A DNA stretch of 59,049 bases from Bacteroidia bacterium (GCA_047614125.1 JBLHHI010000002.1:1-59049), one strand, 5' to 3'; shown: positions 10,632-54,797, counted from the stretch's first letter. Notes: generated from the letters alone by a model not told the origin. Numbers and translations are program-made.

Positions 10632-10646
10632 ATGAATAAAATTTAT

Positions 10647-10654
10647 CAAAGATA
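10647..10654 (-). promoter_or_regulatory. -7 promoter box TATCTTTG (perfect TAnnTTTG) for the beta-helix gene
   Basis: The plus strand reads CAAAGATA at 10647-10654, 16 nt upstream of the ATG at 10631. This matches the established Bacteroidota sigma-A -7 consensus. Confidence 0.5.
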
Positions 10655-10898
10655 AGGGTTTGTTTAAAGCCACAATTACGGGTTTGTACCCATTTGAAAT
10701 AATTCGACACAATAATCACAAAGCATCCTCAAATATTCTTCAACTCACCTACGCCACGATTCCTTCAACTTCAACCAGCCTACGCAAGCTACAGCCTGCG
10801 GCGTACAGGTTCGGCTGGCGCGGCTTTAACTTAAAAAGGATTACTCCGTGATCCTCTTTAAGCCGTGAATGGAATCAAAAGTTGCGCTGTCGCGCCTC

Positions 10899-28268: not shown

Positions 28269-29216
28269 GTGAAACAGAATAAAATAAAAATAGCAATCAT
28301 TGGACGAAGCGAACTGCTTTTTAAAACAGCCATCTCGATAAAGGAAATGGGGTTTGAAATTCCATTAGTAGTGACGGCTAAGGAGGCACCTGAATACAAA
28401 GTAAAATCATCAGATTTTAAAAATTTTGCGGACAAATGCAATGCAACATTCATTCATACGGCCAAAATAAATAAAGCGGAATACATTGAGCAAATTAAAG
28501 CATGTGGCCCAATTGATATTGCTGTGAGCATAAATTACAACGGCATCATTGCTCAAGAAGTAATTGACTTGTTTCCTTTGGGAATTCTAAATGCTCATGG
28601 TGGAGACCTCCCTCGATACCGAGGAAACGCTTGCCAAGCTTGGGCCATAATTAATGGCGAAGAAAAAATAGGAATGTGCATTCATAAAATGCGTGGAGGT
28701 GAATTGGATAACGGTGACATTATTGCACGAGGTTATTATCAATTGTTGGATACCACTAGAATTGTCGAAGTGTATGATTGGATGGAAACCTGTATTCCGG
28801 AACTCATGAGCAGCGCCATTGATTCCATATCAAAGAATACCAATTTCATTCTAGATAAACAGTCGGAAGACCCCAAAGATACCTTACGATGTTATCCAAG
28901 AAACCAAGACGACGGAAAGATAGATTGGAACAAATCAGCAGTGGGAATTGATCGATTAATTCGAGCCTCTAGCGAACCTTTTAGTGGCGCATTTTGCTAT
29001 TTGGATGAGCAAAAGTTAACCATATGGAGGGCACAATTGGTTTATGACGAAGAGATTTATTTATCGTCGGTTGGTCAAGTTGCAGGAATTAGTTCAACCG
29101 GAATAGAAGTCATTACCTCATCTGGAAAATTACGGTTGTTAGAAATTGAGTACAACGGTGTGCGAACTACAGAACCTAACCAGATTATTAAATCAATACG
29201 GAAAAGACTAAAATGA
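28269..29216 (+). CDS. Fmt/ArnA-like formyltransferase (probable sugar N-formyltransferase)
   Basis: GTG start. It carries the formyl_trans_N signature with the catalytic N-x-H (ILNAHGGDLPRYRG) and Asp (ELDNGDII), plus a C-terminal Fmt-like domain. Its stop overlaps the next start (ATGA). Confidence 0.75.
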   Translation: MKQNKIKIAIIGRSELLFKTAISIKEMGFEIPLVVTAKEAPEYKVKSSDFKNFADKCNATFIHTAKINKAEYIEQIKACGPIDIAVSINYNGIIAQEVIDLFPLGILNAHGGDLPRYRGNACQAWAIINGEEKIGMCIHKMRGGELDNGDIIARGYYQLLDTTRIVEVYDWMETCIPELMSSAIDSISKNTNFILDKQSEDPKDTLRCYPRNQDDGKIDWNKSAVGIDRLIRASSEPFSGAFCYLDEQKLTIWRAQLVYDEEIYLSSVGQVAGISSTGIEVITSSGKLRLLEIEYNGVRTTEPNQIIKSIRKRLK

Positions 29217-30358
29217 GCAATAAACAAATTTGTACACGATGCATTTACGATACAAGCGTGCCGAAAATTACGTTCAACGCCGATGGCATCTGCAATTACT
29301 GTGAAATGTCTGACAATCTAAAAGCCCAATACCATACTGGTGACGACGAGGGAATGCGGATATGGTTGGCACATGTTGTAGACATTAAAAAAGCTGGAAA
29401 AGGTAAAAAATACGATTGTGTAATTGGTGTGAGCGGAGGTGTAGACTCTTCCTACATGCTGCACTATGCTATTGAACTTGGTTTGAGGCCTTTAGCTGTT
29501 CATTACGACAATACATGGAACTCGGCCATCGCAACTGAAAATATACGAAAAGTTACCGATGCTCTGAAGATCGATCTTTTTACTCATGTGGTTGATAATC
29601 GAGAATCGGATGATATTTTTAAGAGTTTCTTCTACGCTGGGGTTCCTGAAATAGATGCCCCCACCGATTTAGGTTTTGCAGAAACACATTTTCGTGCTGC
29701 GTCGAAATACGGAATTAAATATGTTTTGGAAGGTCATACCTTTATGCAAGAAGGCGTTTCGCCACTATCCACTATGTATTTTGATGGCAAATACATATCA
29801 TCCATTCATAAAAAGTTTGGGAAAAAGAAAATGAAAACCTATCCACTCATGAATTTCACTGCATTTATGAAATGGTCTATCATAAAGAATATCAAAAAGA
29901 TAAGACCATACTGGTACATTCATTACACCAAACAAGATGCAATTAAACTTTTGACCGAAAAATACGGTTGGGAATATTATGGAGGACATCATTTAGAAAA
30001 CCGCATGTCGGCCTTTATGCACAGCGTATATCTTCCAAATAAATTTAAAATCGATCAAAGAAACAATACGCTTTCAGCCTTGTCGCGAAATGGTTTTATG
30101 GAACGCGATGCAGCCTTGGTTGAATATGCCAAACCTCCCTTTGTTGAAAAGGAATTGGTGGAGTACTTCAAAAAACGATTAAACCTAACTGACGAAGAAT
30201 ACTCCAAGGTTATGACGGACGAACCGAAGTATTTCGAATCGTATCCAACCTATAAAAAACGTTTTGAGCGCTTGAGACCCTTGTTCTTCATTTTGGCCAA
30301 ATCAAATTTAGTACCAATGAGTTTCTATTTAAAATATTGCTTCCCAATTCAGAAATAA
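29213..30358 (+). CDS. N-acetyl-sugar amidotransferase (WbuX/WbpG/PseA-like PP-loop ATPase)
   Basis: N-terminal zinc ribbon CTRC...CNYC, then the PP-loop GVSGGVDSS. 381 aa. Confidence 0.8.
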   Translation: MSNKQICTRCIYDTSVPKITFNADGICNYCEMSDNLKAQYHTGDDEGMRIWLAHVVDIKKAGKGKKYDCVIGVSGGVDSSYMLHYAIELGLRPLAVHYDNTWNSAIATENIRKVTDALKIDLFTHVVDNRESDDIFKSFFYAGVPEIDAPTDLGFAETHFRAASKYGIKYVLEGHTFMQEGVSPLSTMYFDGKYISSIHKKFGKKKMKTYPLMNFTAFMKWSIIKNIKKIRPYWYIHYTKQDAIKLLTEKYGWEYYGGHHLENRMSAFMHSVYLPNKFKIDQRNNTLSALSRNGFMERDAALVEYAKPPFVEKELVEYFKKRLNLTDEEYSKVMTDEPKYFESYPTYKKRFERLRPLFFILAKSNLVPMSFYLKYCFPIQK

Positions 30359-30364
30359 AAATTC

Positions 30365-30982
30365 TTGAGCGTAATAACCATAATTGATTACGGTATGGGC
30401 AATTTGGGCTCCGTTCAAAACATGTTTAAATACATTGGTGTAAAAAGCCAAATTAGTTCTGACATAAAAGAAATAAAAGCAGCGGAGAAGTTGCTACTAC
30501 CGGGTGTTGGATCTTTTGATGCCGCAATGCAACGGTTAAACGATTTAGGATTGTCTGAACTACTCACTCAAAAAGTTGTTCAGGATAAAACACCAACACT
30601 AGGCATATGTTTAGGCATGCAGTTGTTAACAAATGGAAGCGATGAAGGCAAACTAGCTGGTTTGGGCTGGATTGATGCCTATACGCACAAGTTCGAATCT
30701 GAGCCCGGTCGAAAAATACCGCACATGGGTTGGAGTCAAGTACATATTAAAAAAGAATCTTTGCTTTCAAAATCCATTAGTGAAGAGTCTAAATTCTACT
30801 TCGTTCACTCGTACTATGTGAAGGTTAAAGATGAAGAAAATGCCATGTTAACCACTAAGTATGGTTCAACAATCTTCGATTCTGCGATTCAAAACGAACA
30901 TATTTTCGGTGCTCAATTTCACCCTGAGAAAAGTCATAAACACGGCATGGCATTGCTAAAAAGTTTCGCAGATTATCAATGA
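30365..30982 (+). CDS. HisH-like glutamine amidotransferase subunit (WbuY-like)
   Basis: TTG start giving MSVITIIDYGMGNLGSV, catalytic Cys GICLGMQLL, His/Glu FHPEKS. It overlaps the next gene (ATGA). Confidence 0.85.
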   Translation: MSVITIIDYGMGNLGSVQNMFKYIGVKSQISSDIKEIKAAEKLLLPGVGSFDAAMQRLNDLGLSELLTQKVVQDKTPTLGICLGMQLLTNGSDEGKLAGLGWIDAYTHKFESEPGRKIPHMGWSQVHIKKESLLSKSISEESKFYFVHSYYVKVKDEENAMLTTKYGSTIFDSAIQNEHIFGAQFHPEKSHKHGMALLKSFADYQ

Positions 30983-31746
30983 TCGCAGCTCGAATAATTC
31001 CTTGTTTACAATTGATTGACGATGCATTGGTAAAATGCGTTAAATTTAAAAACCCAAGCTACATCGGCGATCCCATTAACACAGTTCGCATTTTCAATGA
31101 ATTGGAAGTAGATGAGCTTTGCTTTTTAGATATACGAGCAACTAAAGAAAAAAGAGCACCCAACCTACAAATTCTACGCGACATTGCCAATGAGTGCTTT
31201 ATGCCGCTCTCGTATGGTGGTGGCGTAAAAGACGCAACGACTGCATTGAACATCTTATCGATCGGCTTTGAAAAAATAGTCTTTAACACGGCACTCTTCG
31301 AACATCCCGAGGTTATTACAGAATTGGCTAAAGTGGCTGGTAATCAAAGCGTTATTGCTTCAATCGATGTCAAGAAAAATCTTTGGGGCAAGTACGAAGT
31401 GTACTCGCACGATGGAAATAAGAAACAAAAACTTTCTGCCGTAGAATGCGCAAAGCGCGCGGAAAATTTGGGTGCCGGCGAGCTGTTAATTACCTCCATG
31501 AATAACGAAGGAAGCTGGCAAGGCTTTGATATTGACTTGTGCAAAATGATCAATGAATCCGTATCAATACCCGTTATCGCCAACGCTGGAGCAGGAAACA
31601 TCAACCACATTGGCGAAGTAATTTCTCAGGCCAATGTTTCGGGGGTTGCTTTGGGTAGTATGGTAGTTTATCAAAAACAAGGAATGGGTGTTTTAGTAAA
31701 CTTTCCAGATAAAAGTCTCTTAAAAGAAAAACTCAAAACTTTTTAA
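30979..31746 (+). CDS. HisF-like cyclase/synthase subunit (WbuZ-like)
   Basis: RIIPCLQL...DELCFLDI...GGGV...ADKV-type TIM-barrel pattern of HisF. Its location inside a polysaccharide locus next to the WbuX-like gene supports the call. Confidence 0.85.
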   Translation: MIAARIIPCLQLIDDALVKCVKFKNPSYIGDPINTVRIFNELEVDELCFLDIRATKEKRAPNLQILRDIANECFMPLSYGGGVKDATTALNILSIGFEKIVFNTALFEHPEVITELAKVAGNQSVIASIDVKKNLWGKYEVYSHDGNKKQKLSAVECAKRAENLGAGELLITSMNNEGSWQGFDIDLCKMINESVSIPVIANAGAGNINHIGEVISQANVSGVALGSMVVYQKQGMGVLVNFPDKSLLKEKLKTF

Positions 31747-38314: not shown

Positions 38315-40072
38315 ATGTCGGCCTTTGTTGACATATCCATTACCAACAAAACGAAGCCATTGAAACGGGTTCGCATTTTTAATAAACCTTGGGTAGCAAG
38401 CGATGGATATGCTTATTCATTGCCTCATCAAATCTCCAAATCAGCAACTGGCCAAACTTTTAAAGCTTTAGAAAGCGATGAACTTACCATTCTTGTATTG
38501 GGTCAGTTTAACACTCTTGTTTCAGACGCTGAATTAATATACCTGCTTGAAAGTTCTGTTTTAAAGATAAAGCCATTTAAAGATCCACCCGGACAATGGT
38601 TAATTTTATGCTTCGAGAAAAAAACACATAATTGGCATGTATTTACGGATCGATTTGGAACTGAAAAAGCCTATCACCGTAGTGGAGATCATGCAGCAAT
38701 ATCAACCTACTTTGGTTCCATTCTTGATGATTTTGATATTAAAAACTTTGATCAAACTGGATTTACATGCTTTGTTGGGAACGGATTCTTCCCTGAAGAC
38801 CTAACATACCATTCAGATGTCAAAGTATTGAAGCCAGCTTCTCATTACATCTTTAACGAATCACTTGCACTGCAAGAGATTTCTAGGTATTGGAATTGGG
38901 AACATAGTCCCGATCAATCTTTATCGATGGATAAGGCGTTGGCTGAATTTCACCACCTCATTATTAACGTTGTAGGACAGGCAGTACAAAACAAACGAGT
39001 GGCTCTCCCACTTTCTGGAGGTTTGGATTCAAGAACCTTAGCGGGTGTTCTAACTCATAAAGACTTTAAACAAAGATTTCCAAAAAGCGGCGCCATCACA
39101 AGTTTTTCGTACGAATATGCAAACGGTCTTCCAGAAGCACAAATCTCTTCTAAGATTGCTGCAACCTTGAATCTACCGTTTAAAAAATTTATTGTTCCGA
39201 ACTATCTCTTTAACAAAATGGCTGTTGTTGAAGATAGTGTTGAGATGTTTCAAACCATAGATGGTACCCGCCAAATTATGGTTGGCGATTGGTTGGCGGA
39301 GAATTCTGATGTTGTACTTGGGGGCCATTGGGGAGATGTATGGTTGGATGCATCCAATGAAATATCAGAAACAGACCTCCTCCCTACTTATCAAAAAAAA
39401 ATGAATAAGAGAGGTCGAGAAATCCTTTTTGACCTTTTGCACAACTTCATCGTTGACGATCCTCAAAATGCCTTAGATGACTACTTTACTAAGGCCATTG
39501 AAGCATACCAGCACATAAAAGACAGCGATTTTAGAATGAAAGCTTTTAAAACAGACCAATGGTCGTTTAGATGGACCTTGGCAAGTATAAAAGCTTATCA
39601 GGCGGGTGCGTATCCGGTTCTCCCTTTTTACGACGGAAGAATGGCCGATTTTTTTGAAAAAATCCCAACCGCGTGGCTGGTCAATCGCAAGTTTCAGGTG
39701 GAATACTTAAAAAAGTTTCATCCCGATTTGGCCCGAATTACATGGCAAGAATATGGAGCCAATCTGTTTTTATATCCATACGTAAACAACAGACAGCTAT
39801 GGTATCGAGTGATATCTAAACTAAGAAGAATGCTCACCTTTAAGAAATTTACCTACCGCAATTGGGAAGTGTTTTATTTAAACACTGAAGGAAGGCGGTC
39901 TCTGGAAAAGGATGTATACAAGCATCAATGGCTAGTTGAGAAAATAGGCAAGGAACGACTTGACGCTTTTTTCGCTGCGTTTTACGCCAATCCAAAAGCC
40001 GACAATGGCTATGCCATGTGCCACTTACACACCTTTTCCCGTTTCATCAACAAGTACTGCCCAGAAGGATGA
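38315..40072 (+). CDS. asparagine-synthase-like PP-loop amide ligase lacking the N-terminal Cys nucleophile
   Basis: PP-loop ALPLSGGLDSRT. The N-domain relic FTDRFGTEKAYH is comparable with RDRFGVKPLYY of the AsnB at 25346. The N-terminus is MSAFVDI, with no Cys2. Confidence 0.7.
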   Translation: MSAFVDISITNKTKPLKRVRIFNKPWVASDGYAYSLPHQISKSATGQTFKALESDELTILVLGQFNTLVSDAELIYLLESSVLKIKPFKDPPGQWLILCFEKKTHNWHVFTDRFGTEKAYHRSGDHAAISTYFGSILDDFDIKNFDQTGFTCFVGNGFFPEDLTYHSDVKVLKPASHYIFNESLALQEISRYWNWEHSPDQSLSMDKALAEFHHLIINVVGQAVQNKRVALPLSGGLDSRTLAGVLTHKDFKQRFPKSGAITSFSYEYANGLPEAQISSKIAATLNLPFKKFIVPNYLFNKMAVVEDSVEMFQTIDGTRQIMVGDWLAENSDVVLGGHWGDVWLDASNEISETDLLPTYQKKMNKRGREILFDLLHNFIVDDPQNALDDYFTKAIEAYQHIKDSDFRMKAFKTDQWSFRWTLASIKAYQAGAYPVLPFYDGRMADFFEKIPTAWLVNRKFQVEYLKKFHPDLARITWQEYGANLFLYPYVNNRQLWYRVISKLRRMLTFKKFTYRNWEVFYLNTEGRRSLEKDVYKHQWLVEKIGKERLDAFFAAFYANPKADNGYAMCHLHTFSRFINKYCPEG

Positions 40073-41249: not shown

Positions 41250-42131
41250 ATGAATATAACAAAAAAGGTGGATCAAAAAGGTGCTAAGCTTATTGTAATA
41301 TGGGATTACGATACGCCTATTTCTAGAATAACCGCCACAAAACCTTATAAGTACCAGTTTGATAAATGCTTACAAGAAGAGAAAAATGTAGCAAAAATCT
41401 TGGAAGTGGCAGAGGAGTTTGAAGCGGAAATGACCTTTGCTGTGGTAGGTTATGGGGCAGAACAAAGTGTTTATCCGTTCGATGTTCGGCATGTAATCAA
41501 GCAAATTCGTGATAAAGGTCATGAGGTGGCTTCTCATTCTTGGAAGCACGAGTGGTTTCCTTACTTGACCAAATATCAAATTGAACATACCTTAAAGCGC
41601 AGCAAACTGATCATTGAGCAAACCATCGGAGAAGGTCATGTTACGGGCTTTGTTCCTCCACATGACAAGCCGTACAGTTGGTTGTCAAAATTTGCCTGGA
41701 GTAAGGGCGATCGGGCGCTTTACCCCTTCCACCCAGGTGCGGATATTGGATACATTGCAGGTGAATTAAATCGGCAAAATTACACTTGGTACCGCGTTCG
41801 ATTCAGAAGTATTTGGAATAAATTAGTAGATTGGGAAGGCATCAAACTCGAAAAGAGATTAACCCGTCCTTGGATTAAACACAAGGGAACCATATGCTTT
41901 AATGCCACCTACAATGGCTTCGACGAAAGAGCGCTGCAATTAATGGATCAGGCCGTTAAAACCAACGCGGTAATAGTTGTTGTTGGGCACCCAGCGGCAT
42001 TATCGTGGAAAGGGCCGGAAAGCATGGATTGTTTTCAAAAGTTGATGGAACATGCATCATCCTATAAGAAGGATGGAAAACTCGAATTCTTTACGGTTCA
42101 AGATTATATCAACGAATACATTAATCAATGA
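41250..42131 (+). CDS. polysaccharide deacetylase (CE4 / NodB homology)
   Basis: IWDYDTP (Asp-Asp-type motif 1), HEVASHSWKHEW (HxxxH metal motif) and VVVGHPAAL. Confidence 0.7.
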   Translation: MNITKKVDQKGAKLIVIWDYDTPISRITATKPYKYQFDKCLQEEKNVAKILEVAEEFEAEMTFAVVGYGAEQSVYPFDVRHVIKQIRDKGHEVASHSWKHEWFPYLTKYQIEHTLKRSKLIIEQTIGEGHVTGFVPPHDKPYSWLSKFAWSKGDRALYPFHPGADIGYIAGELNRQNYTWYRVRFRSIWNKLVDWEGIKLEKRLTRPWIKHKGTICFNATYNGFDERALQLMDQAVKTNAVIVVVGHPAALSWKGPESMDCFQKLMEHASSYKKDGKLEFFTVQDYINEYINQ

Positions 42132-43174
42132 GAATCGATCGATTGCAAAATATAGCCAAAAAGAAGGTGAGCACGCTAAAACCTCCCTTGCTTAATTCGC
42201 ACAGTGCATTCGTTGAAAAAGCTTGGGGTTTAACGTCTATACGTAAAGATTACAACTTCTTACAGTGGAAGTTCAAATCAGCAGACCCACACAACATTGC
42301 TGGGCTTCTTGTGTATGTGGAAAACGAAGAAGTGCAAGGCCAATTGGGCGTTATACCCGATAAAGTTAAAATCGATGGTCAAGTACACGCTTGCCAATGG
42401 GGATGTAATTTTAAGTGTCTTCCTGAGTACGAGGGCAGCGGAATAGGTGCCTTGCTGGATATTGCCTCGCTAGAAAAAACAGAGATAACTTTTGGCGTTA
42501 GCCCTACCAAACAATCAGAAGACATCAAACGAAGGTTGGGGTTCACCTTGCTTGAAGGTCCACGTGTATTAATGTACCCGGTCGATTTTTATCATCTCAT
42601 TTCGCTTAAACTGCCACCGAAATTGAGATTTAGCCGGGTCGCTTTCAAAGCCCTATTCCAAGCTGTTTACAAAATAATATTCAATAAGATTCAACGAAAA
42701 TCCATTAGCCAAATCGATGTATTTGAGGGTGATTGGAAGGATATTTTTTCGTTTCTCAAGAAGGCTCGGGCAAAAATTAGCATTCCGCATGTAGTTCACG
42801 ATGAGCAATTTATGCACTGGCGTTGCGATGAGTTGCCAAAGTATAGATCTTCTGCACTCTCCTTGTATACAAATTTGGGCAGCTTTGTAGTTTGTAATGT
42901 TGGCAACCCATATTTGATGATAAACGAATATAACTTTGTGAACCGCAATGAAGGTGTTGAATTATTAAAAAAATGTTTTCAAAAAGCAAAAGAAATGGGT
43001 GCTAGAACCTTAAAAGTTTACGCAAACAACAGCGATCAAGAGAGCCTGTTTTCTAGTTTAGGATTTATTCCTTTGAGACATCGTGTAACCGTTTACGCCC
43101 ACACAAACAACAGCAATATAAATTTGGGTCGTAAGTTTCATTACGATGGCTATGATGGAGAAAGTAATTTGTAG
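42128..43174 (+). CDS. tandem GNAT-fold acyltransferase-like protein
   Basis: ATGA overlap with the deacetylase. GNAT motif A-like EYEGSGIGALLD in the first half. The second half ends ...ESLFSSLGFIP, which is typical of a GNAT C-terminus. Confidence 0.5.
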   Translation: MRIDRLQNIAKKKVSTLKPPLLNSHSAFVEKAWGLTSIRKDYNFLQWKFKSADPHNIAGLLVYVENEEVQGQLGVIPDKVKIDGQVHACQWGCNFKCLPEYEGSGIGALLDIASLEKTEITFGVSPTKQSEDIKRRLGFTLLEGPRVLMYPVDFYHLISLKLPPKLRFSRVAFKALFQAVYKIIFNKIQRKSISQIDVFEGDWKDIFSFLKKARAKISIPHVVHDEQFMHWRCDELPKYRSSALSLYTNLGSFVVCNVGNPYLMINEYNFVNRNEGVELLKKCFQKAKEMGARTLKVYANNSDQESLFSSLGFIPLRHRVTVYAHTNNSNINLGRKFHYDGYDGESNL

Positions 43175-43177
43175 ATT

Positions 43178-44188
43178 ATGGTTAGTGAAATAAAAGCAAT
43201 TAGCTACTACCTTCCGGAAGACGTATTAAGCAATCAAGCGCTAGTAGAACAATTTCCGGAATGGTCAATTCAAAAAATTGAGGACAAAACAGGCATCAAG
43301 CAACGTCATATTTCTGCAGATGATGAATTGGCATCTGACATGGCGGTGAAGGCAGCCGAGAAACTCTTTGAAGAATATGCCATCGATCGATCAATCATCG
43401 ATTTTGTTATCCTGTGTACACAAAGTCCCGATTATTATTTGCCTACAACGGCTTGTATCATCCAAAACAAGCTCGGTTTATCAACGAGTACCGGCGCTTT
43501 TGATATCAACCTTGGATGTTCTGGTTTTGTATACTCATTGGGTATTTGCCGAGGTCTTATCGAATCAAATCAGGCCAAAAACATTCTCTTGCTTACCTCC
43601 GAAACGTACAGCAAGTTTATTGATCCGAGAGATAAGAGCATTCGAACACTCTTTGGTGACGCAGCCTGTGCTACGCTCGTTTCGGCGGCCGACGGAAGTT
43701 CTAAAATTGAAAACTTTGTTTATGGAACAGATGGCGCAGGTGCAGAGCATCTCATCGTAAAAAGAAACAGCCTGCGAATTAACGATCATGCAAAAACCGA
43801 AGAAATGATCGAAGATGAATATGGTAATAAACGCAAAATGGGAGATCTATTCATGAATGGCGCTGAAGTGTTTAACTTTTCAATAAAGTCTGTACCCGTA
43901 CTCATTAAGCAAACGCTTGAAAAAAATAATATGGAAATGGAAGATGTAGATTACTTTGTATTACACCAGCCCAATAAGTTTATGTTGGATGGGCTTCAAA
44001 GACGGTCTAAAATTCCGAAAGAGAAATTTTTAACCTATTATGAGCAGTGCGGAAATACCGTATCCTCAACCATTCCCATCGTTTTGAAAGAATCCATGAA
44101 AAGCGGAATTCTTAAAAAAGGTAATCGAGTTTTACTTGCCGGCTTTGGCGTTGGATATTCTTGGGCCGGATGCATTCTAACACTCTAA
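43178..44188 (+). CDS. KAS III (FabH-like) beta-ketoacyl-ACP synthase / acyltransferase
   Basis: Cys-His-Asn triad contexts NLGCSGFVYSL, VLHQPNKFM and CGNTVSSTIP. 336 aa. Confidence 0.85.
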   Translation: MVSEIKAISYYLPEDVLSNQALVEQFPEWSIQKIEDKTGIKQRHISADDELASDMAVKAAEKLFEEYAIDRSIIDFVILCTQSPDYYLPTTACIIQNKLGLSTSTGAFDINLGCSGFVYSLGICRGLIESNQAKNILLLTSETYSKFIDPRDKSIRTLFGDAACATLVSAADGSSKIENFVYGTDGAGAEHLIVKRNSLRINDHAKTEEMIEDEYGNKRKMGDLFMNGAEVFNFSIKSVPVLIKQTLEKNNMEMEDVDYFVLHQPNKFMLDGLQRRSKIPKEKFLTYYEQCGNTVSSTIPIVLKESMKSGILKKGNRVLLAGFGVGYSWAGCILTL

Positions 44189-44198
44189 AATTAGTACA

Positions 44199-44420
44199 AT
44201 GGATTTTGAAACTTTTAAAAACAACTTTGAAACGCAGCTTGAAGAAGCTCCCGAAACAGCTCTTACCCAGGACACTTTATTTAAAAACCTACCTACATGG
44301 GATTCTATGACCGCATTAATGGTTATTGACATGTTTGATGCCGATTATGGTAAAACCATTTCAAACGAGCACATTAAAACCTGCAAAACCTTAGGAGATT
44401 TGTTTGAACTTGCCAAGTAA
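44199..44420 (+). CDS. acyl carrier protein
   Basis: 73 aa, acidic, with phosphopantetheine-serine context LPTWDSMTALMVID. Confidence 0.75.
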   Translation: MDFETFKNNFETQLEEAPETALTQDTLFKNLPTWDSMTALMVIDMFDADYGKTISNEHIKTCKTLGDLFELAK

Positions 44421-44517: not shown

Positions 44518-46068
44518 TTGAACATCGATTTAATCCTTTTCTCATCAAAAGCAGCCATGGATTGGCCATTGGGCAAGCTGTGCATCATTAACCATAACTT
44601 TGCTGATATTCAACCCTTTGTTGCTGAATCTACGAGCGATTTTATTTTATTTTGGGATGCAAATAACCCATTGCCCAGTTCAGATTTACTGGCCGAGATT
44701 ACCTCTCGTCCGGGTGATATTTGGCACGCCGGACTTCGCTTTGGGTTGCAAGGCCTTCCCGAAAAAATTAACTTTGTCCATCCAACTTGGATGTACAACT
44801 GTGATGGGAATCCAAGTGTAAACACCACATCTTTCCGACTGAGTTTTAAGGCAATGATCGGAAAGACTTCGGTGCTTCAACAAGTTGAGATTTATGACCA
44901 ATCGTACACCTCTATTTCCTATGCCGGAATAGATCTCGGCTATCGCTTGATGCGATCTGGCGCCATCATTCGATACGACACCGATTTAATCGTTGATCCA
45001 GTTCGTAATTCTTTAAAGTCCAACCAAGTAAACTTGCATGATGAATGGTACTTTATCTGTAAATACTTTTCGAACAAGTGGCGAAAATGGACCTTACTAA
45101 GGAGCTTTGCAAAAGAAGGTGCATTGGTGAAAAATCTACAGATGTACACTAAATTTAAGAGCGTTCCTAAACACAAGTTCGAATTTATCCATCAAGAAAT
45201 ACGTCTCGAATCGGGAGCCTTGGATAAGTACAAAAACAACATTTCTGTGCTGGCGCCCACACTCAATAGATACAGCTATTTGGAGGCAGAGTACCAACAA
45301 TTAGCAAAACAAAGCATCTTGCCGTTGGAGGCTTTAACAACCGACCAAACCAGCCTTGAGCAGCGTGAAGAAATAAAGGTAGACAAGTATCCTCCGCTTC
45401 GAATTAGAACTTTTGTGCAGGAAGAGAAAGGTCAATGTGTTGCTTGGAATAAGCTCCTGGAAGAATCGAAAGGTGAATACGTTTTCTTTCTAGGAGATGA
45501 TGCTGACGACATTCATCCCGACTTTATCGAAAGAATGTGCTCAACCATGGAAAAACACAAGGTAGACATGGTTGCCACCAATGTGATTGAAGCGGGCAAC
45601 TGCAATACCATTGATACCGACTATACCTGCATTGCCGAGACATTTCCGATCACATTAATTAAAAAAAAGGTGGTGATGGATGCCGGGGCAATGGACATGT
45701 TGTTCAATAAAGGCATTCGAGCCGACGGTGATTTAGCCATGAGATGTTACCTCAATGGTGCAACTTTCTTATTTGACTCTTCACTTAGAATATTTCACCA
45801 TCGAGCCCCGGTTGGCGGTTTGAGAAGTTTAAAGCAACGAGTGATAACCAATCATATGACTAAAACTCAGATTATGAAGTTTACCTCACCAACGGCAACT
45901 GAGAAAATTATTATGTCGAGGTACTTTAGTAAATCGCAGATCAAAGAAGAAATGTTGATGCGTAAGATGTCGGCATTAAGTATAAATGGACCGGTTTGGA
46001 GAAAAATTGTCAAATTATTTGTTGGCTGTGGCTGGTTGTTGTTGAACGGAAGAAAGTACAAGGTTTAA
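44518..46068 (+). CDS. GT2-family glycosyltransferase with an extra degenerate N-terminal GT2-like domain
   Basis: The C-terminal half has ISVLAPTLNR...VFFLGDDADDIHPDF (DxD). The N-terminal ~230 aa looks like a second GT-A-like domain without a DxD. The start is uncertain (TTG at 44518 or ATG at 44557). Confidence 0.65.
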   Translation: MNIDLILFSSKAAMDWPLGKLCIINHNFADIQPFVAESTSDFILFWDANNPLPSSDLLAEITSRPGDIWHAGLRFGLQGLPEKINFVHPTWMYNCDGNPSVNTTSFRLSFKAMIGKTSVLQQVEIYDQSYTSISYAGIDLGYRLMRSGAIIRYDTDLIVDPVRNSLKSNQVNLHDEWYFICKYFSNKWRKWTLLRSFAKEGALVKNLQMYTKFKSVPKHKFEFIHQEIRLESGALDKYKNNISVLAPTLNRYSYLEAEYQQLAKQSILPLEALTTDQTSLEQREEIKVDKYPPLRIRTFVQEEKGQCVAWNKLLEESKGEYVFFLGDDADDIHPDFIERMCSTMEKHKVDMVATNVIEAGNCNTIDTDYTCIAETFPITLIKKKVVMDAGAMDMLFNKGIRADGDLAMRCYLNGATFLFDSSLRIFHHRAPVGGLRSLKQRVITNHMTKTQIMKFTSPTATEKIIMSRYFSKSQIKEEMLMRKMSALSINGPVWRKIVKLFVGCGWLLLNGRKYKV

Positions 46069-47171: not shown

Positions 47172-48863
47172 ATGAGTTATTTTGTTGGAATATCTTCCCT
47201 TGATTGTGACTCAACCGTCTCGATAATAAAAGATGGCAAAATTGTGTATTCCGCTCAAGAAGAGCGATTTAGCCGAATAAAACAACAAAGCGGTTTCCCA
47301 TACAAAGCCATACAGAACGGCTTTGATTACTTAAAAATAACGGTTGCTGATGTTGCCAGTATTTCACATGGATGGTTTACTCCAGATGAAGAAATCAAAA
47401 TGTACAAAAAGAGCGGGCACTCGGTGTTGAAATCGACCGGTTGGACCAAACGCCCTTTTCTTCCTACGCTGTTAAACCAACTAAACTTTAGACGCAGAGC
47501 TCAATATAAAAATCCTCAAACCTTTATAAGGTCTGAAAGAGATCTACAAAAAGGTTTGACGGATATAGGATACGAGAAGCCCGTGGCACGATTTCATCAT
47601 CAAGATTGTCACGCCGCATCTGCATACTACACCTCTGGCCACGATCGAACACTTATTTTTACCCTGGATGGATACGGTTCGGGTTCTTGTGGCGGTGTAT
47701 TTATTGGAGAAAACATGGAAGTAAAACCTTTGCACTATGTGAAGAGTCCTCAATCGCTTGGGAACATGTATGCACGGGTAACAAAGGCCTTGGGTTTTAC
47801 TCCCAACAGACATGAGGGTAAGGTTCTTGGTTTAGCGGCCTATGGCAACGCAGATGCACATTACGAGGAAATCATGCAAGACTTTGAGCTAACACCGGAT
47901 GGATATACCTATCACAACTCATTAAATCCGTGGATCTATAGAAAGATGTTTGAAACAGGTAAACGGGAAGATTTGGCTGCCTCATTTCAAAAAGTTTTAG
48001 AAACGGTTGTGGTTCACTTGGTTAAGCTATATGTTCAGAAAACGGGAGTTAGCAAAGTGTGCTTAGCCGGTGGAGTTGCCGCTAATGTTAAAATGAATCA
48101 ACGAGTTTTAGAAATTGATGATGTGTCTGAGCTTTATATTCACCCCGGAATGTCGGACGTTGGCTTAGGAACGGGCTCTGCCTTTTTAGATGCAGCCACT
48201 CATTACACCATAACACCCTATACGCTTACCGATGTTTACTTGGGTCCTAGCTTCAGCCAAAAAGAAGTTCAACACGCCATTGATCAATTTGATTTTGACT
48301 ATGAACAGCAGTCCAACATCGAAGAGCGAATTGCAGAATTGCTCGCCGAAGGCAAGGTTGTAGGAAGATTTATAGGTAGAATGGAATACGGCCCTCGAGC
48401 CTTGTGCAATCGAAGCATCTATGCTTCTGCACAAGATCCTGATATTAACTCATGGCTGAACGAGCGATTAAATCGAACGGAATTCATGCCCTTTGCCCCA
48501 GTTACCTTACAAAGCGAAGCGAATAACATGTACCATAACATCGATAAGGCTCAATACACCTCGCAATTCATGACAACAACTTTAGATTGTACGGATGACA
48601 TGAAGAAAATTTCTCCAGCGGCTGTGCACGTTGATGGCACAGCGCGACCACAATTGATAAATGCTACCAACAACCCGAGTGCACATAAAGTATTAACGCA
48701 TTATTTCAAATTAACCGGTATTCCCAATATTATAAATACCAGCTACAACATGCACGAAGAACCCATAATATGCACACCATACGATGCACTAAAAGCATTT
48801 GGCGAGGGACGATTGGAGTATTTAGCCTTGGATGATTTCTTGTTAAAATCAAAAGATATTTGA
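47172..48863 (+). CDS. NodU/CmcH-family carbamoyltransferase
   Basis: The N-terminal GISSLDCDSTVSIIKDGKIVYSAQEERFSRIK and the C-terminal YrdC/Kae1-like region (NTSYNMHEEPIICTP) are typical of O-carbamoyltransferases. 563 aa. Confidence 0.8.
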   Translation: MSYFVGISSLDCDSTVSIIKDGKIVYSAQEERFSRIKQQSGFPYKAIQNGFDYLKITVADVASISHGWFTPDEEIKMYKKSGHSVLKSTGWTKRPFLPTLLNQLNFRRRAQYKNPQTFIRSERDLQKGLTDIGYEKPVARFHHQDCHAASAYYTSGHDRTLIFTLDGYGSGSCGGVFIGENMEVKPLHYVKSPQSLGNMYARVTKALGFTPNRHEGKVLGLAAYGNADAHYEEIMQDFELTPDGYTYHNSLNPWIYRKMFETGKREDLAASFQKVLETVVVHLVKLYVQKTGVSKVCLAGGVAANVKMNQRVLEIDDVSELYIHPGMSDVGLGTGSAFLDAATHYTITPYTLTDVYLGPSFSQKEVQHAIDQFDFDYEQQSNIEERIAELLAEGKVVGRFIGRMEYGPRALCNRSIYASAQDPDINSWLNERLNRTEFMPFAPVTLQSEANNMYHNIDKAQYTSQFMTTTLDCTDDMKKISPAAVHVDGTARPQLINATNNPSAHKVLTHYFKLTGIPNIINTSYNMHEEPIICTPYDALKAFGEGRLEYLALDDFLLKSKDI

Positions 48864-49807
48864 AAAAGAACTACTTCAGACTGCGCAAATGGACTGGATT
48901 GGACCGGCTTTCTGAACTAGGGCTGGCGAACTGTTTACCCTTTGTTTTGTGTTATCATGAGGTAGATCAAAAACAGCTGAAAAAACAAATCGAATATTTA
49001 AATCAGAACATAAGGGCCGTTCATATCGGTGAGATTTTGTCGGCAGCCAAAGGCACGTATGCGGTAACTGTGGATGATTGCATCCATAAAGACGTGACAG
49101 ATTCCGCTTCGGTTTTTATTGAAAATCAAACTTCAGCATCGTACTACCTGCCTTATGATTATACAGATGGAAAATCTACCCTTTGGCATATTAAGCTTCT
49201 ACAGCTTTGCAATCATTTAACTTCAATGGAAGTAGACTCGGTGATTTACGTGATGCAAACAAAAAAACAAAAACGGAAGGCATTTGATCGGTTAAATCAA
49301 GTTTTTTATAACTCTGGAATGCAACCGCAAGATTTGCAAAAAAAAATCAAAAATCTTGCCATTGAGCATAATTATACTATGGATTTGATTACTCCGGATG
49401 AGATGGTAATCAGTAGGGATCAAATCCGAACTCTATCATCCAATCCGCTCTTAAACTTCGAGTCACACACGTTGTCACACCCCTTCCTTCATAGATGTAC
49501 TGAACAAGAAATAGCTCGAGAATTGGAAGGTTCTAAAACAAAAATTGAAGCACTCACACAGCAAAGTGTTCGTTCGTTGAGTTATCCATATGGCTCGCTT
49601 GATATAATTGGTAATAAAGCTCCACAAATCGCTACTAAGTTTTATTCAAACGCAGTGACACTTGTTGGAGGGGTGATCACCAATCGCACTATGCCATTTT
49701 TAATACCAAGAATTGCCATTTACCCAAAAGATGATTTGAATGTGTTTAAATCCAAAATATTTCATTATCAAAACCTTGCAAGAGCCAATGCCCTTTTCGG
49801 AAGATAA
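48860..49807 (+). CDS. polysaccharide deacetylase (CE4-like)
   Basis: TTGA overlap with the previous stop. It contains YAVTVDDC (TxDD-type motif) and FESHTLSHPFL (HxxxH). Confidence 0.65.
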   Translation: MKKNYFRLRKWTGLDRLSELGLANCLPFVLCYHEVDQKQLKKQIEYLNQNIRAVHIGEILSAAKGTYAVTVDDCIHKDVTDSASVFIENQTSASYYLPYDYTDGKSTLWHIKLLQLCNHLTSMEVDSVIYVMQTKKQKRKAFDRLNQVFYNSGMQPQDLQKKIKNLAIEHNYTMDLITPDEMVISRDQIRTLSSNPLLNFESHTLSHPFLHRCTEQEIARELEGSKTKIEALTQQSVRSLSYPYGSLDIIGNKAPQIATKFYSNAVTLVGGVITNRTMPFLIPRIAIYPKDDLNVFKSKIFHYQNLARANALFGR

Positions 49808-53399: not shown

Positions 53400-54797
53400 A
53401 TGAGTGGATTGTCTAAGCTTTACGGGAAACTGCCGGTTTGGATTCAAAACCTGGGTATATCAGCATACGGCCTCTATTGGAAACACCGAAGATTTGGTGG
53501 AACTTTTAAGAAACAATGTAAAGATTGCACACAGCGTGAAACATTTAGTCATCAAGAATGGCGGTCTTATCAGACAACAGAATTGCAAAAAATGCTCAAA
53601 CACGCCTTTGAACACGTACCATTTTACAGCAATTCACTAACCGCTGCAGGATACTCGCTTGATAAACTTTCATCTTTGAAATTAAACGAGATCGCAAAAC
53701 TTCCTTATCTTGAAAAACATGATCTTAGAAAATATGGTAAAACAACCCTACTTGCCGATAATCTAGATAAAAATGGTTCGTTTTATTCGAGCAGCGGAAG
53801 TTCCGGAACACCTACGCAAATCTATTATTCAAAAACCATGCATCGAGCTTGGTCTGCTATTTTCGAGGCACGCATTCGCTTTTGGGCTGGGATTACAAGA
53901 TTTTCAAGTCGAGGAACCATTGGAGGTAGAAGGGTTGTAGAAGAAGGGCCGAGTTCCGGTCCATTTTATCGATTTAACTTGGTTGAAAAACAAGCGTACT
54001 TCTCGGCATACCATATTGCACCTCAGAACATTCCAGATTATATAGAAGGCATAAAAAAGCACGAGCTTAGCTACATGACTGGCTACGCCATGAGTAACTT
54101 CATCCTGGCCCGCTTTATTGAAGATGCGGGGTTAAAGGCTCCCAGATTGAAAGCTGTTATCACTTCAAGTGAAAAACTCACAACCGAAATGCGCGATACT
54201 TTCAAACGTGTATATGAATGTAAGACCTATGATTCTTATAGCGGTGTTGAAGCATGTGGCCTTATTTCGGAGTGTGAACACGGTAGGTTGCATGTTTCTC
54301 CAGATGCTGGAATAATTGAAATTATTAAAGATAACGGAAAAAGTGCGCAACCTGGTGAATCGGGTGAAGCTATCTGTACCGGAATTCTCAACTTCGATCA
54401 ACCGTTGATCAGATACCGAATTGGCGATTTTGTAAGACTCGCTAAAGATCAGACATGTCCCTGCGCTCGAAACATGCCCATTATTGATGAAATTATAGGG
54501 AGAACCGAAGACATCGTTACTGGACCTGATGGAAGGCAGATGGTTCGATTTCATAACATTTTCACCAACCTAGATTCGATTATAGAAGGTCAGATAATTC
54601 AAGAAACAGCCTCCGATTTTGAAGTGAAGGTCGTTACATCCGGAGAGTTGACTGAAGCAGTTAGCGCGGAACTCACTAATAGAATGAAATCACAACTTGG
54701 GGATGTTTCCATTAAAATTGTTCCTGTTGAACTCATTCCGCGCAACATAAATGGGAAATTTAAAGCCGTTATTTCACATCTAAACAAAAAGAATTAA
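53400..54797 (+). CDS. PaaK / coenzyme-F390-synthetase-like adenylate-forming enzyme (CapK-like)
   Basis: Adenylation motif SSSGSSGTPTQIYYS with the overall PaaK-like layout. It starts 1 nt after the preceding stop. Confidence 0.7.
   Translation: MSGLSKLYGKLPVWIQNLGISAYGLYWKHRRFGGTFKKQCKDCTQRETFSHQEWRSYQTTELQKMLKHAFEHVPFYSNSLTAAGYSLDKLSSLKLNEIAKLPYLEKHDLRKYGKTTLLADNLDKNGSFYSSSGSSGTPTQIYYSKTMHRAWSAIFEARIRFWAGITRFSSRGTIGGRRVVEEGPSSGPFYRFNLVEKQAYFSAYHIAPQNIPDYIEGIKKHELSYMTGYAMSNFILARFIEDAGLKAPRLKAVITSSEKLTTEMRDTFKRVYECKTYDSYSGVEACGLISECEHGRLHVSPDAGIIEIIKDNGKSAQPGESGEAICTGILNFDQPLIRYRIGDFVRLAKDQTCPCARNMPIIDEIIGRTEDIVTGPDGRQMVRFHNIFTNLDSIIEGQIIQETASDFEVKVVTSGELTEAVSAELTNRMKSQLGDVSIKIVPVELIPRNINGKFKAVISHLNKKN

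What the first reader, a model, noticed from the sequence alone, without database searches (positions are those of the whole stretch)
41250..44420. CE4 deacetylase - tandem GNAT - KASIII - ACP cassette: LpxC/LpxD-like 'deacetylate then re-acylate' logic on a polysaccharide sugar
Four consecutive, tightly packed genes (ATGA overlap at 42128, gaps of 3 and 10 nt) make up the cassette. They encode a NodB-type deacetylase (HSWKH), a two-GNAT-domain protein (EYEGSGIGALLD), a FabH-like enzyme with an intact Cys-His-Asn triad, and a 73-aa ACP (WDSM). No ketoreductase, dehydratase or enoyl reductase is present in the window. By analogy with lipid A biosynthesis, an N-acetyl sugar may be deacetylated and its amine re-acylated from an ACP-bound short (beta-keto or hydroxy) acyl chain made by the KASIII. 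In lipid A, LpxC deacetylates and LpxD then N-acylates from acyl-ACP. Alternatively the KASIII homologue may itself be the acyltransferase, as in KASIII-like enzymes such as CerJ. Carrier-protein-dependent acylation of surface polysaccharides is poorly characterised, and this four-gene arrangement may be an undescribed tailoring system.
Basis: inference. Interest (0 to 1): 0.7.

Follow-up and report, generated by a model that had tools for sequence, protein, structure and literature searches.

The report
Sugar de-acetylate/re-acylate cassette with ACP
Four adjacent genes in a Bacteroidota surface-polysaccharide locus appear built to remove the acetyl group from an amino sugar and replace it with a short acyl chain made on a dedicated carrier protein; this is a new combination of parts for a kind of sugar tailoring already known from Nod factors and the Porphyromonas Vim pathway.

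Summary
Four tightly packed + strand genes encode an intact NodB-type CE4 deacetylase, a two-domain GNAT (AF2 pLDDT 94.5; Eis/NMT-like fold), a FabH-type KASIII with Cys-His-Asn, and a divergent 73-aa ACP. All four recur together in three different gene orders in five or six independent loci, so they form a functional unit.

The four genes are not the basic unit, though. Across about 25 loci (GC 0.28-0.67) the conserved core is CE4 plus this unannotated tandem GNAT, usually with the neighbouring GT2 (44518-46068). KASIII plus ACP is an add-on in two branches. It is orthologous to a widespread Bacteroidota acyl-supply module that normally pairs with a DegT aminotransferase and a PglD-like transferase (the F. 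psychrophilum wfpC-G type, already predicted in the literature).

The "deacetylate, then N-acylate from acyl-ACP" reading is the best-supported one but remains inferred. With one KAS and no KR, I predict a C4 acyl group (acetoacetyl or 3-hydroxybutanoyl).

Closer precedents than LpxC/LpxD are NodB/NodA/NodF/NodE, VimE/VimA, and TunE/TunC/TunK. I rate it a new variant of a known kind, of moderate interest.

The parts
41250..42131 (+). CE4 (NodB-type) metal-dependent deacetylase, cytoplasmic (no signal peptide evident); proposed to expose a sugar amine
   Evidence: PF01522, E 1e-15. The best curated family is TIGR03006 (XrtA-locus deacetylase), but at 50 bits against a cutoff of 276. D19/D21, H96/H100 (HSWKH), R140-P141 and H247 are conserved in at least 90% of 15 relatives. 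It lies directly beside the GNAT gene in about 20 loci.
42128..43174 (+). Tandem-GNAT protein of an unannotated family; proposed N-acyltransferase that takes the acyl group from the ACP
   Evidence: Only 3 word-index relatives. The exhaustive profile search finds 343 cluster representatives at E<1e-3 and 100 at E<1e-10. PF13527 hits 51 of 59 members. AF2 pLDDT 94.5. Foldseek matches Eis-like GNATs and NMTs over about 330 columns. Motif A (R/E-x-x-G-x-G/A) is conserved, and the C-terminus is fixed as D-S-D-x-N-[LI]-COOH in 57 of 59 members. No NCBIfam family matches, including TIGR03019.
43178..44188 (+). FabH-type KASIII with Cys-His-Asn; proposed to make a 3-oxoacyl (C4) chain on the dedicated ACP
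   Evidence: NF006829, 288 bits against a cutoff of 249. 3GWA at E 9e-106 with active-site motifs aligned. About 60% identical to the KASIII of ACP/KR/PglD-like cassettes in Flavobacterium, Pedobacter and Aestuariivivens.
44199..44420 (+). Dedicated acyl carrier protein (acidic, pI 4.3; Ser36 in W-D-S-M)
   Evidence: The profile of 4 clade members hits FAS ACPs (2ehs, E 0.0013) with Ser36 on the phosphopantetheine serine. PF00550 hits 4 of 4 members. 34-38% identical to the 75-76-aa ORFs beside KASIII in isolate genomes. pI.
44518..46068 (+). GT2-domain glycosyltransferase (cluster c2) with an uncharacterised ~240-aa N-terminal region; conserved partner of the CE4-GNAT pair
   Evidence: PF00535 at residues 243-372. 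Homologues lie within 3 kb of the GNAT gene, mostly directly adjacent, in 17 loci. Only weak PDB GT2 hits.
38315..40072 (+). AsnB-like protein without an N-terminal Cys (cluster c5); recurrent member of the same locus type, loosely associated
   Evidence: PF00733, E 1.9e-5. TIGR03108 (XrtA-system amidotransferase), E 5e-6, sub-threshold. Recurs in 10 loci.

Best explanation
This is an N-acyl exchange module for an amino sugar of a Wzx/Wzy-type polysaccharide in a Bacteroidota (probably Cytophagales) genome. The proposed steps are:

1. The CE4 enzyme removes the N-acetyl group from a HexNAc-type sugar in the cytoplasm. It could act on the nucleotide sugar, as proposed for VimE, or after the neighbouring GT2 has added the sugar to the lipid-linked repeat. 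The data cannot say which.
2. The dedicated ACP is phosphopantetheinylated and malonylated by housekeeping enzymes (AcpS, FabD).
3. The KASIII condenses a short acyl-CoA, probably acetyl-CoA, with malonyl-ACP to give 3-oxobutanoyl-ACP. Housekeeping FabG may reduce this to 3-hydroxybutanoyl-ACP.
4. The tandem GNAT binds the pantetheine arm in its N-terminal domain and transfers the acyl group to the freed amine. It probably uses an NMT/Eis-like mechanism in which the strictly conserved C-terminal carboxylate acts as the base.

Shown here: the gene content, intact catalytic motifs, the protein folds, and conserved but permuted linkage.
Inferred: every chemical step, the acceptor, and the chain length.
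For: 1. Linkage of all four genes in three orders:
- CE4-GNAT-KAS-ACP in the window and the P0001 contig.
- CE4-KAS-ACP-GNAT in L003 and L004.
- ACP-KAS-CE4-GNAT in the distant L020, which stands alone outside any GT cluster.
- KAS-ACP-GNAT in L001/L002, where the contig ends before any CE4.

2. CE4 is directly adjacent to the GNAT gene, on either side, in every locus with about 1 kb of flank on both sides, across GC 0.28-0.67. The GT2 is close by in 17 loci.

3. All catalytic signatures are intact: the CE4 Asp/His set, GNAT motif A and the fixed C-terminus, the KASIII Cys-His-Asn triad and the ACP serine.

4. The KASIII+ACP pair is orthologous to modules that sit beside sugar N-acyltransferases (PglD-like or a small GNAT) and DegT aminotransferases in glycan loci. 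Pedobacter has just transferase + ACP + KASIII with no KR, like the window.

5. Published precedents for the logic:
- VimE (CE4) then VimA (N-acyltransferase), with a GT and an AsnB-like enzyme, in Bacteroidota (PMC7468200).
- NodB then NodA using acyl-ACP, with a dedicated KAS and ACP (PMC5080398).
- wfpC-G (PMC6519341).
- TunE/TunC/TunK (PMC6965331).

6. The window contains no other candidate acyltransferase (no LbH/PglD-like or Acyl_transf_3 gene) and no paralogues of the four proteins.
Against: - There is no biochemical or structural evidence for any step, and the polymer structure is unknown.
- Most members of the GNAT family work without a linked KASIII/ACP. The family's default donor is therefore something else (acyl-CoA, housekeeping acyl-ACP or an aminoacyl donor), and ACP use in this clade is only inferred from linkage.
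- No sequence or charge signature separates the ACP-linked clades from the rest. The whole family is basic (pI about 9.4). The window clade's R102E change in motif A is not shared by L020.
- The acceptor position is unknown. The window also encodes two DegT aminotransferases (24170-25309, 57831-59042) whose amino sugars also need N-acylation, so the GNAT's acceptor need not be the CE4 product.
- Chain length and oxidation state are guesses based on the absence of a KR and a second KAS.
- Whether FabD, FabG and AcpS accept this divergent ACP is untested.
Confidence: 0.55

Rival explanations
1. Vim-like aminoacylation or acyl-CoA use. The CE4-GNAT pair deacetylates and then adds an amino acid or a CoA-derived acyl group, as proposed for VimE/VimA. 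The KASIII/ACP pair serves a different acceptor, for example an amino sugar made by one of the DegT aminotransferases, or a transferase encoded outside the window.
For: Most CE4-GNAT loci lack KASIII/ACP. The VimE/VimA precedent adds Ser or Gly. Elsewhere the KASIII/ACP module works with DegT and PglD-like enzymes. The window has two DegT genes, and the last one sits at the window edge.
Against: In L003 and L004, KASIII and ACP are inserted between the CE4 and GNAT genes, and the ACP ORF overlaps the GNAT start. L020 is a self-contained ACP-KAS-CE4-GNAT operon with no DegT, PglD-like gene or GT within 5-8 kb. The window has no PglD-like or other acyltransferase. None of the 59 family members matches the VimA family TIGR03019.
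Confidence: 0.17
2. The KASIII does not act as a condensing enzyme. Either it loads the ACP from an acyl-CoA (acyl-CoA:ACP transacylase), or it is itself the acyltransferase onto the sugar (CerJ/ChlB6-like), leaving the GNAT with another job.
For: FabH enzymes have intrinsic transacylase activity, and KASIII-like acyltransferases exist (established knowledge). No KR, DH or ER is encoded nearby.
Against: The Cys-His-Asn triad and the overall FabH profile are intact and above the NCBIfam cutoff. Known KASIII-like acyltransferases typically have Asp in place of Asn, or Ser in place of Cys (from memory). Its orthologues sit with a KR and a second KAS in cassettes that the literature interprets as building a 3,5-dihydroxyhexanoyl chain.
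Confidence: 0.1
3. The ACP is loaded by the locus's CapK/PaaK-like adenylate-forming enzyme (53400-54797) with an unusual carboxylic acid. The KASIII then extends it, so the transferred group is not a simple C4 unit.
For: The c9 protein has the SSGSSGTP adenylation motif. It co-occurs in the window, the P0001 contig, L003 and L004, all of which carry KAS/ACP.
Against: It lies 9 kb away with GT and Wzy genes in between. It is also present in L022, which lacks KAS/ACP, and is absent from L020 and from the isolate KAS/ACP cassettes. The co-occurrence may only reflect shared ancestry of these Cytophagales loci.
Confidence: 0.06
4. CE4 and GNAT do not act in sequence on the same nitrogen. For example, the CE4 leaves a free amine (a GlcN-type residue) or removes an O-acetyl group, and the GNAT acylates a different position.
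For: No data define the acceptor. CE4 enzymes include O-deacetylases, and many polysaccharides keep free amines (established knowledge).
Against: The very tight CE4-GNAT adjacency, often with overlapping stop and start codons, holds over wide phylogenetic distance and in both orders. That is what one expects for consecutive steps, and three characterised systems use exactly this sequence.
Confidence: 0.1

Closest known systems
Nod factor N-acylation: NodB / NodA / NodF / NodE (rhizobia)
   Same: A CE4 deacetylase (NodB is the founding member of the family) frees one sugar amine. An N-acyltransferase then adds an acyl group taken from an acyl carrier protein, and a dedicated KAS plus ACP make the special acyl chain (PMC5080398). 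The four roles are the same as in this cassette.
   Different: The transferase is NodA, a separate family; no member of the GNAT family here hit PF02474. NodE is a KAS I/II-type enzyme that makes long polyunsaturated chains, not a KASIII. The acceptor is a free chito-oligosaccharide, not a Wzx/Wzy polysaccharide unit.
Wbp/Vim pathway: VimE / VimA / VimF / WbpS (Porphyromonas gingivalis, Tannerella forsythia)
   Same: It is in the same phylum. A cytoplasmic CE4 (VimE) is proposed to remove the 2-N-acetyl group of a UDP-sugar. An adjacent N-acyltransferase (VimA) refills the amine. A GT and an AsnB-like amidotransferase are associated, and vimA-vimE adjacency is seen in many genomes (PMC7468200). 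This mirrors the GT2 + CE4 + GNAT (+ AsnB-like) core found here.
   Different: VimA matches TIGR03019 (FemAB-like), whereas 0 of 59 members of this family do. The group VimA adds is Ser or Gly, with no KASIII or ACP. I could not obtain VimE or VimA sequences for a direct comparison.
F. psychrophilum O-antigen wfpC-G type cassette (ACP + two KAS + KR + PglD-like transferase), common in Bacteroidota
   Same: The window's KASIII and ACP are orthologue-level relatives (about 60% and 34-38% identity) of those in such cassettes in Flavobacterium, Pedobacter and Aestuariivivens. The published prediction is ACP-dependent N-acylation of a sugar amine (PMC6519341).
   Different: There the amine comes from a DegT/PglE aminotransferase at C4 of a 6-deoxy sugar, and the transferase is a left-handed beta-helix PglD homologue. 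Here the amine is exposed by a CE4 and the transferase is a tandem GNAT. The window also lacks the second KAS and the KR.
Tunicamycin TunD / TunE / TunC / TunK
   Same: A GT, an N-deacetylase, an acetyltransferase-family N-acyltransferase of about 320-330 aa and a dedicated ACP, plus a KS-like TunP in Rathayibacter (PMC6965331).
   Different: It is a nucleoside antibiotic, not a polysaccharide. TunE is a 230-aa non-CE4 deacetylase and the acyl chains are long. Homology between TunC and this GNAT was not tested.
   Same: Deacetylation of a UDP-GlcNAc derivative followed by N-acylation from acyl-ACP.
   Different: The folds are unrelated: LpxC is not a CE4 and LpxD is a left-handed beta-helix. 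They use housekeeping AcpP and long 3-hydroxyacyl chains. No LpxC or Hexapep hit was found in the cassette.
Eis-like acetyltransferases and N-myristoyltransferases (structural neighbours)
   Same: Two fused GNAT domains with the donor site in the N-terminal one. They are the best Foldseek matches (E 1e-15 to 1e-12). This family has a conserved hydrophobic C-terminal residue, which recalls the catalytic C-terminal carboxylate of NMT and Eis (from memory).
   Different: Sequence identity is only 9-15% and TM about 0.5-0.6. There is no third (SCP2-like) domain as in Eis. The acceptors of those enzymes are aminoglycosides or proteins, not sugars.

Membership tests
CE4 / NodB-homology deacetylases (PF01522) | Profile match above Pfam's gathering score | tested here: met
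   58.2 bits against a cutoff of 23.1, E 1e-15.
CE4 / NodB-homology deacetylases (PF01522) | Asp-Asp (motif 1), His-x-x-x-His metal ligands (motif 2), Arg-Pro (motif 3) and the catalytic His (motif 5) | tested here: met
   D19/D21, H96/H100 (HSWKH), R140-P141 and H247 are conserved in at least 90% of 15 family members. The window protein has K140 where the family has R140.
XrtA/PEP-CTERM-locus deacetylase (TIGR03006) | Score above the equivalog cutoff | tested here: not met
   It is the best NCBIfam hit, but at 50.2 bits against a cutoff of 276.2.
GNAT superfamily | GNAT fold with the beta4-alpha3 motif A (R/Q-x-x-G-x-G/A) pantetheine-pyrophosphate site | tested here: met
   PF13527 hits 51 of 59 members and PF00583 hits 44 of 59. 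In the family, G105 is present in 52 of 59 and G/A107 in 55 of 59; position 102 is R in 45 of 59 and E in the window clade. AF2 plus Foldseek give probability 1.00 to GNAT enzymes. The window protein alone is sub-threshold in Pfam.
Eis-like three-domain acetyltransferases | Third, SCP2-like C-terminal domain after the two GNAT domains | tested here: not met
   The protein is 348 aa against about 385-400 aa. The model's secondary structure ends after the second GNAT domain. PF17668 hits only 1 of 59 members. Eis NF002368 hits 1 of 59 at E 9e-4.
VimA / FemAB-related PEP-CTERM family (TIGR03019) | Profile match | tested here: not met
   0 of 59 members match at E<=0.01, and the window protein has no NCBIfam hit at E<=1.
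NodA N-acyltransferase (PF02474) | Profile match | tested here: not met
   It is not among the Pfam families matched by any of the 59 members at E<=0.01.
FabH / KASIII condensing enzymes | Profile match above the curated cutoff | tested here: met
   NF006829 at 287.6 bits against a cutoff of 249. The narrower TIGR00747 fabH model scores 258.3 against a cutoff of 292.1 and is not met, consistent with a paralogous subfamily.
FabH / KASIII condensing enzymes | Cys-His-Asn catalytic triad | tested here: met
   NLGCSGF, LHQPNKF and CGNTVSS align to the same motifs in the solved FabH paralogue 3GWA. Assigning these motifs to the triad rests on established FabH knowledge.
KASIII-like acyltransferases (CerJ / DpsC type) | Altered triad (Asp replacing Asn, and/or Ser replacing Cys) | tested here: not met
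   Asn and Cys are retained. The defining feature itself is recalled from the literature, not re-verified here.
Acyl carrier proteins (PF00550) | Four-helix carrier domain with a D-S-[LM] phosphopantetheine serine | tested here: inconclusive
   The window protein scores 15.7 bits against a cutoff of 20.8. However, 4 of 4 clade members hit PF00550 (best 5e-7), and the clade profile aligns Ser36 to the attachment serine of 2ehs and 2fq0 ACPs (E 0.0013).
wfpC-G-type ACP-dependent sugar N-acylation cassette | Orthologous KASIII and ACP | tested here: met
   The KASIII is 60-61% identical and the ACP 34-38% identical (E 1e-14 to 1e-18) to those of the Flavobacterium, Pedobacter and Aestuariivivens cassettes.
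wfpC-G-type ACP-dependent sugar N-acylation cassette | PglD-like (LbH) transferase, KR and second KAS adjacent to the module | tested here: not met
   None is present in the window. The Pedobacter cassette also lacks the KR and second KAS.
LpxC/LpxD system | LpxC-fold deacetylase and LbH LpxD acyltransferase | tested here: not met
   No LpxC or Hexapep Pfam hits were found for the cassette proteins. The folds found are CE4 and GNAT.
Any of the above as a working acyl-ACP:sugar N-acyltransferase system | Demonstrated transfer from acyl-ACP to a de-N-acetylated sugar | not testable with these tools
   This requires enzymology or analysis of the polymer structure.

The most novel reading that the evidence does not exclude
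The unannotated tandem-GNAT family (about 340 cluster representatives, with no Pfam or NCBIfam model of its own) is a new class of sugar N-acyltransferase. Together with its obligate CE4 partner and a dedicated GT2, it would form a general 'N-acyl swapping' system for HexNAc residues of exopolysaccharides across several phyla. It would use an NMT-like C-terminal-carboxylate mechanism, and in at least two lineages it would have independently recruited a KASIII+ACP module so that the donor is a purpose-built acyl-ACP.
Probability: 0.35. Interest if true: 0.65.

Novelty: new variant of a known kind. Interest (0 to 1): 0.5.

Why it matters
Non-acetyl N-acyl groups on surface sugars shape antigenicity, phage and lectin recognition and polymer properties, yet the enzymes that install them at C2 of HexNAc-derived residues are mostly unknown.

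If the model holds, it would do three things:
- Assign a function to an unannotated GNAT family and its CE4 and GT2 partners, which recur in exopolysaccharide loci of very different bacteria.
- Show that the Bacteroidota KASIII+ACP acyl-supply module is portable between unrelated transferases (PglD-like, small GNAT, tandem GNAT) and between different ways of generating the amine (transamination or deacetylation).
- Provide a compact four-gene toolkit for replacing N-acetyl with designed short acyl groups on glycans.

It would not overturn any concept, because the logic is already established for Nod factors, tunicamycin and the Vim pathway.

Tried and rejected
- AF2 from the 4-sequence alignment gave pLDDT 56 and was unusable. 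It was replaced by a model from the 59-sequence alignment.
- A PDB sequence search with the shallow profile gave only spurious ubiquitin/NEDD8 hits.
- The search for related loci with the 59-sequence alignment failed because no stretch was conserved enough. I redid it with a 16-sequence alignment.
- Literature on 3GWA, the closest solved KASIII, shows only a structural-genomics FabH paralogue with no known function.
- A full-text search for a described CE4/GNAT/KASIII/ACP cassette found nothing relevant. The first two O-antigen/FabH searches also gave no relevant hits.
- I looked for a charge or residue signature that separates ACP-linked GNAT clades from the rest. None was convincing: four shared positions of unclear meaning, and pI about 9.4 throughout the family.
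- A promoter/terminator scan of the cassette found nothing above the shuffled expectation.
- A check for paralogues of the cassette proteins in the window found none. The second CE4 and the other 348-aa ORF are unrelated at BLAST level.
- Some ORF clusters (c16, c25, c26) turned out to be spurious reverse-strand ORFs in high-GC loci and were discarded.
- I could not obtain VimA, VimE, TunC or wfp protein sequences, so homology to them is argued only through NCBIfam/Pfam models and the papers' statements.
- I considered and rejected filing the GNAT as FemAB-like, NodA-like or Eis-like (see the membership table).

Full report
**1. Observation**

The ATGA overlap at 42128-42131 was read directly from the sequence. 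The quoted motifs HSWKH, EYEGSGIGALLD and WDSM are present.

The cassette lies inside a roughly 40-kb co-directional Wzx/Wzy polysaccharide locus. The locus contains:
- Wza at 16851 and Wzc at 17642;
- sugar-nucleotide enzymes, two DegT aminotransferases, an AsnB, a formyltransferase and WbuX/HisH/HisF-like genes;
- Wzx at 32882, Wzy at 50972 and many GT4 genes;
- a carbamoyltransferase and a second CE4.

Upstream genes carry T9SS sorting domains, so the organism is in Bacteroidota. The nearest relatives of the cassette are in Cyclobacteriaceae and Flammeovirgaceae MAGs.

**2. The four proteins**

*CE4.* PF01522 matches well above threshold. The NodB catalytic and metal constellation is intact and conserved in the family.

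*KASIII.* It scores above the NCBIfam FabH-subfamily cutoff. It aligns at E 9e-106 to the uncharacterised B. pseudomallei FabH paralogue 3GWA, with the Cys, His and Asn motifs in register.

*ACP.* It is divergent and sub-threshold on its own. A profile of its clade aligns Ser36 to the phosphopantetheine serine of FAS ACPs, and all four clade members hit PF00550. It is acidic, with pI 4.3.

*"Tandem GNAT".* This is the least annotated part.
- It has only sub-threshold Pfam hits, no NCBIfam hit, and three relatives in the word-index search.
- An exhaustive profile search found a modest family: 343 representatives at E<1e-3 and 100 at E<1e-10, all about 330-355 aa.
- 51 of 59 members hit the GNAT model PF13527.
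- With the 59-sequence alignment, AF2 gave a confident model (pLDDT 94.5, pTM 0.91).
- Its best structural matches, over about 330 columns, are two-GNAT-domain enzymes: Eis-like proteins and N-myristoyltransferases.
- The N-terminal domain keeps the pantetheine-pyrophosphate motif A.
- 57 of 59 members end at the same alignment column in D-S-D-x-N-[L/I] with an invariant Asp. This recalls the catalytic C-terminal carboxylate of NMT and Eis, which I cite from memory.

**3. Is the cassette a unit?**

Yes. All four genes recur together at 37-57% identity, in several orders:
- The same order in a different Wzy-type locus, on the P0001 contig.
- CE4-KAS-ACP-GNAT in two Cytophagales MAGs.
- KAS-ACP-GNAT in short metagenome contigs, which end before any CE4.
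- ACP-KAS-CE4-GNAT as a stand-alone operon in an AT-rich genome whose GNAT is only 25% identical (L020).

Three gene orders with overlapping or near-abutting ORFs argue for selection on linkage.

**4. It is not the basic unit**

I scanned 31 fetched loci, spanning GC 0.28-0.67, with local HMMs.
- A CE4 homologue lies directly beside the GNAT gene, upstream or downstream, in every locus that has about 1 kb of flank on both sides.
- A homologue of the window's GT2 protein (44518-46068) lies within 3 kb, usually adjacent, in 17 loci.
- An AsnB-like gene, GT4 genes, Wzy and a CapK/PaaK-like adenylating enzyme also recur.
- KASIII and ACP are linked in only two branches of the GNAT tree: the window's clade and L020.

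The conserved core is therefore GT2 + CE4 + tandem GNAT, and KASIII/ACP is an accessory donor-supply module.

**5. Origin of the accessory module**

The KASIII has thousands of relatives in Bacteroidota at about 60% identity. I looked at its context in three isolate genomes:
- Flavobacterium sp. CLA17: ACP - KASIII - Rieske - KR - KASIII - PglD-like transferase, next to a DegT gene and GTs.
- Pedobacter hiemivivus: only PglD-like transferase - ACP - KASIII, with no KR.
- Aestuariivivens: GT2 - ACP - small GNAT - KASIII - KR - KASIII ... DegT.

The 75-76-aa ORFs in these loci are clear homologues of the window's ACP. This is the cassette type described for the F. psychrophilum O-antigen (wfpC-G). 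There the authors predict ACP-based synthesis of a 3,5-dihydroxyhexanoyl group and its transfer to UDP-Qui2NAc4N by a PglD homologue (PMC6519341).

The window has the KAS type that sits next to the transferase. It lacks the second KAS and the KR. That is why I predict a single condensation product: 3-oxobutanoyl, or 3-hydroxybutanoyl if housekeeping FabG acts on it.

**6. Mechanism**

The best-supported model has four steps. The CE4 exposes the amine of a HexNAc-type sugar in the cytoplasm. The dedicated ACP is malonylated by FabD. The KASIII makes the C4 3-oxoacyl-ACP. The tandem GNAT transfers the acyl group to the amine, and the GT2 installs the sugar either before or after this modification.

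All chemical steps are inferred. What is shown is gene content, intact motifs, folds and conserved linkage.

The main weakness is that most family members lack KASIII/ACP, so ACP use by this clade rests on synteny alone. I found no sequence signature for it. Rival explanations are listed separately in the report sections.

**7. Comparison with known systems**

LpxC/LpxD shares only the abstract logic. Closer systems are:
- Nod factor synthesis: NodB (CE4), NodA (acyl-ACP-dependent N-acyltransferase) and NodE/NodF (KAS + ACP) (PMC5080398).
- The Bacteroidota Wbp/Vim pathway: VimE (CE4) then VimA (N-acyltransferase adding Ser or Gly), with the VimF GT and the AsnB-like WbpS. vimA-vimE adjacency is widespread (PMC7468200).
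- Tunicamycin: TunD, TunE, TunC and TunK (PMC6965331).
- The wfp-type cassettes described above.

Membership tests show that the GNAT is not in the VimA (TIGR03019), NodA or Eis families. The CE4 is nearest to the XrtA-locus deacetylase TIGR03006 but falls far below its cutoff.

**8. Verdict**

This is a real, conserved and biochemically uncharacterised cassette. It combines known kinds of parts in a combination not found described in the searched literature: CE4 + a new tandem-GNAT family + a wfp-type KASIII/ACP. I rate it a new variant of a known kind and of moderate interest.

The more general and arguably more interesting result is the widely distributed GT2-CE4-tandem-GNAT triad, whose chemistry is unknown.

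Noticed in passing
window 47172-48863 and 48860-49807: A NodU/CmcH-type carbamoyltransferase (PF02543 + PF16861) overlaps by 4 nt the start of a second, unrelated CE4 deacetylase. This may be a second 'deacetylate, then modify' pair in the same locus. In Nod factor synthesis, carbamoylation is reported only after deacetylation (PMC5080398).
   Followed up: partly
window 53400-54797: A 465-aa protein with no Pfam hit carries the SSGSSGTP motif and a C-terminal NGKFK, typical of PaaK/CapK adenylate-forming enzymes. Homologues (cluster c9) recur in L003, L004 and L022, and the P0001 contig has a CapK_C protein. It could amidate a uronic acid or load a carrier protein.
   Followed up: partly
window 38315-40072: An AsnB-like protein that lacks the N-terminal Cys nucleophile (it starts MSAFVD) recurs in 10 loci of this type (cluster c5). 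A second, complete AsnB with a GATase domain is at 25346-27238. This parallels WbpS in the Vim pathway.
   Followed up: partly
L020:3473-6743 (Ga0233432_10001217, GC 0.29): A stand-alone ACP-KASIII-CE4-GNAT operon with no glycosyltransferase within 5-8 kb. The four genes may therefore act on a soluble precursor such as a nucleotide sugar rather than on a lipid-linked repeat.
   Followed up: partly
window 42128-43174 (family alignment A2): 57 of 59 members of the GNAT family end at the same column with Leu or Ile, after an invariant Asp (D343). The window's clade alone replaces the motif A Arg with Glu (E102).
   Followed up: partly
window 28269-31746: A sugar N-formyltransferase-like gene (PF00551 + PF02911) is followed by a PAPS_reduct-like gene, a HisH-like gene and a HisF-like gene. 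This resembles a WbuX/WbuY/WbuZ-type set, which suggests acetamidino or other N-modified amino sugars in the same polymer.
   Followed up: no
window 27219-28265 and 20128-20721: Two ORFs in the locus (348 aa and 197 aa) have no Pfam hit. The first overlaps the end of the AsnB gene by 20 nt and is unrelated to the 348-aa GNAT.
   Followed up: partly
window 945-10712: A cluster of T9SS cargo proteins (Por_Secre_tail or CHU_C domains), including a 1461-aa protein on the - strand and split multicopper-oxidase ORFs at 10-948 and 945-2135.
   Followed up: no
window 44518-46068: The conserved GT2 partner has an N-terminal region of about 240 aa with no detectable family. Its start codon is ambiguous (TTG at 44518 or ATG at 44557), which leaves a 97-136-nt gap after the ACP gene, the only sizeable gap in the cassette region.
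   Followed up: no
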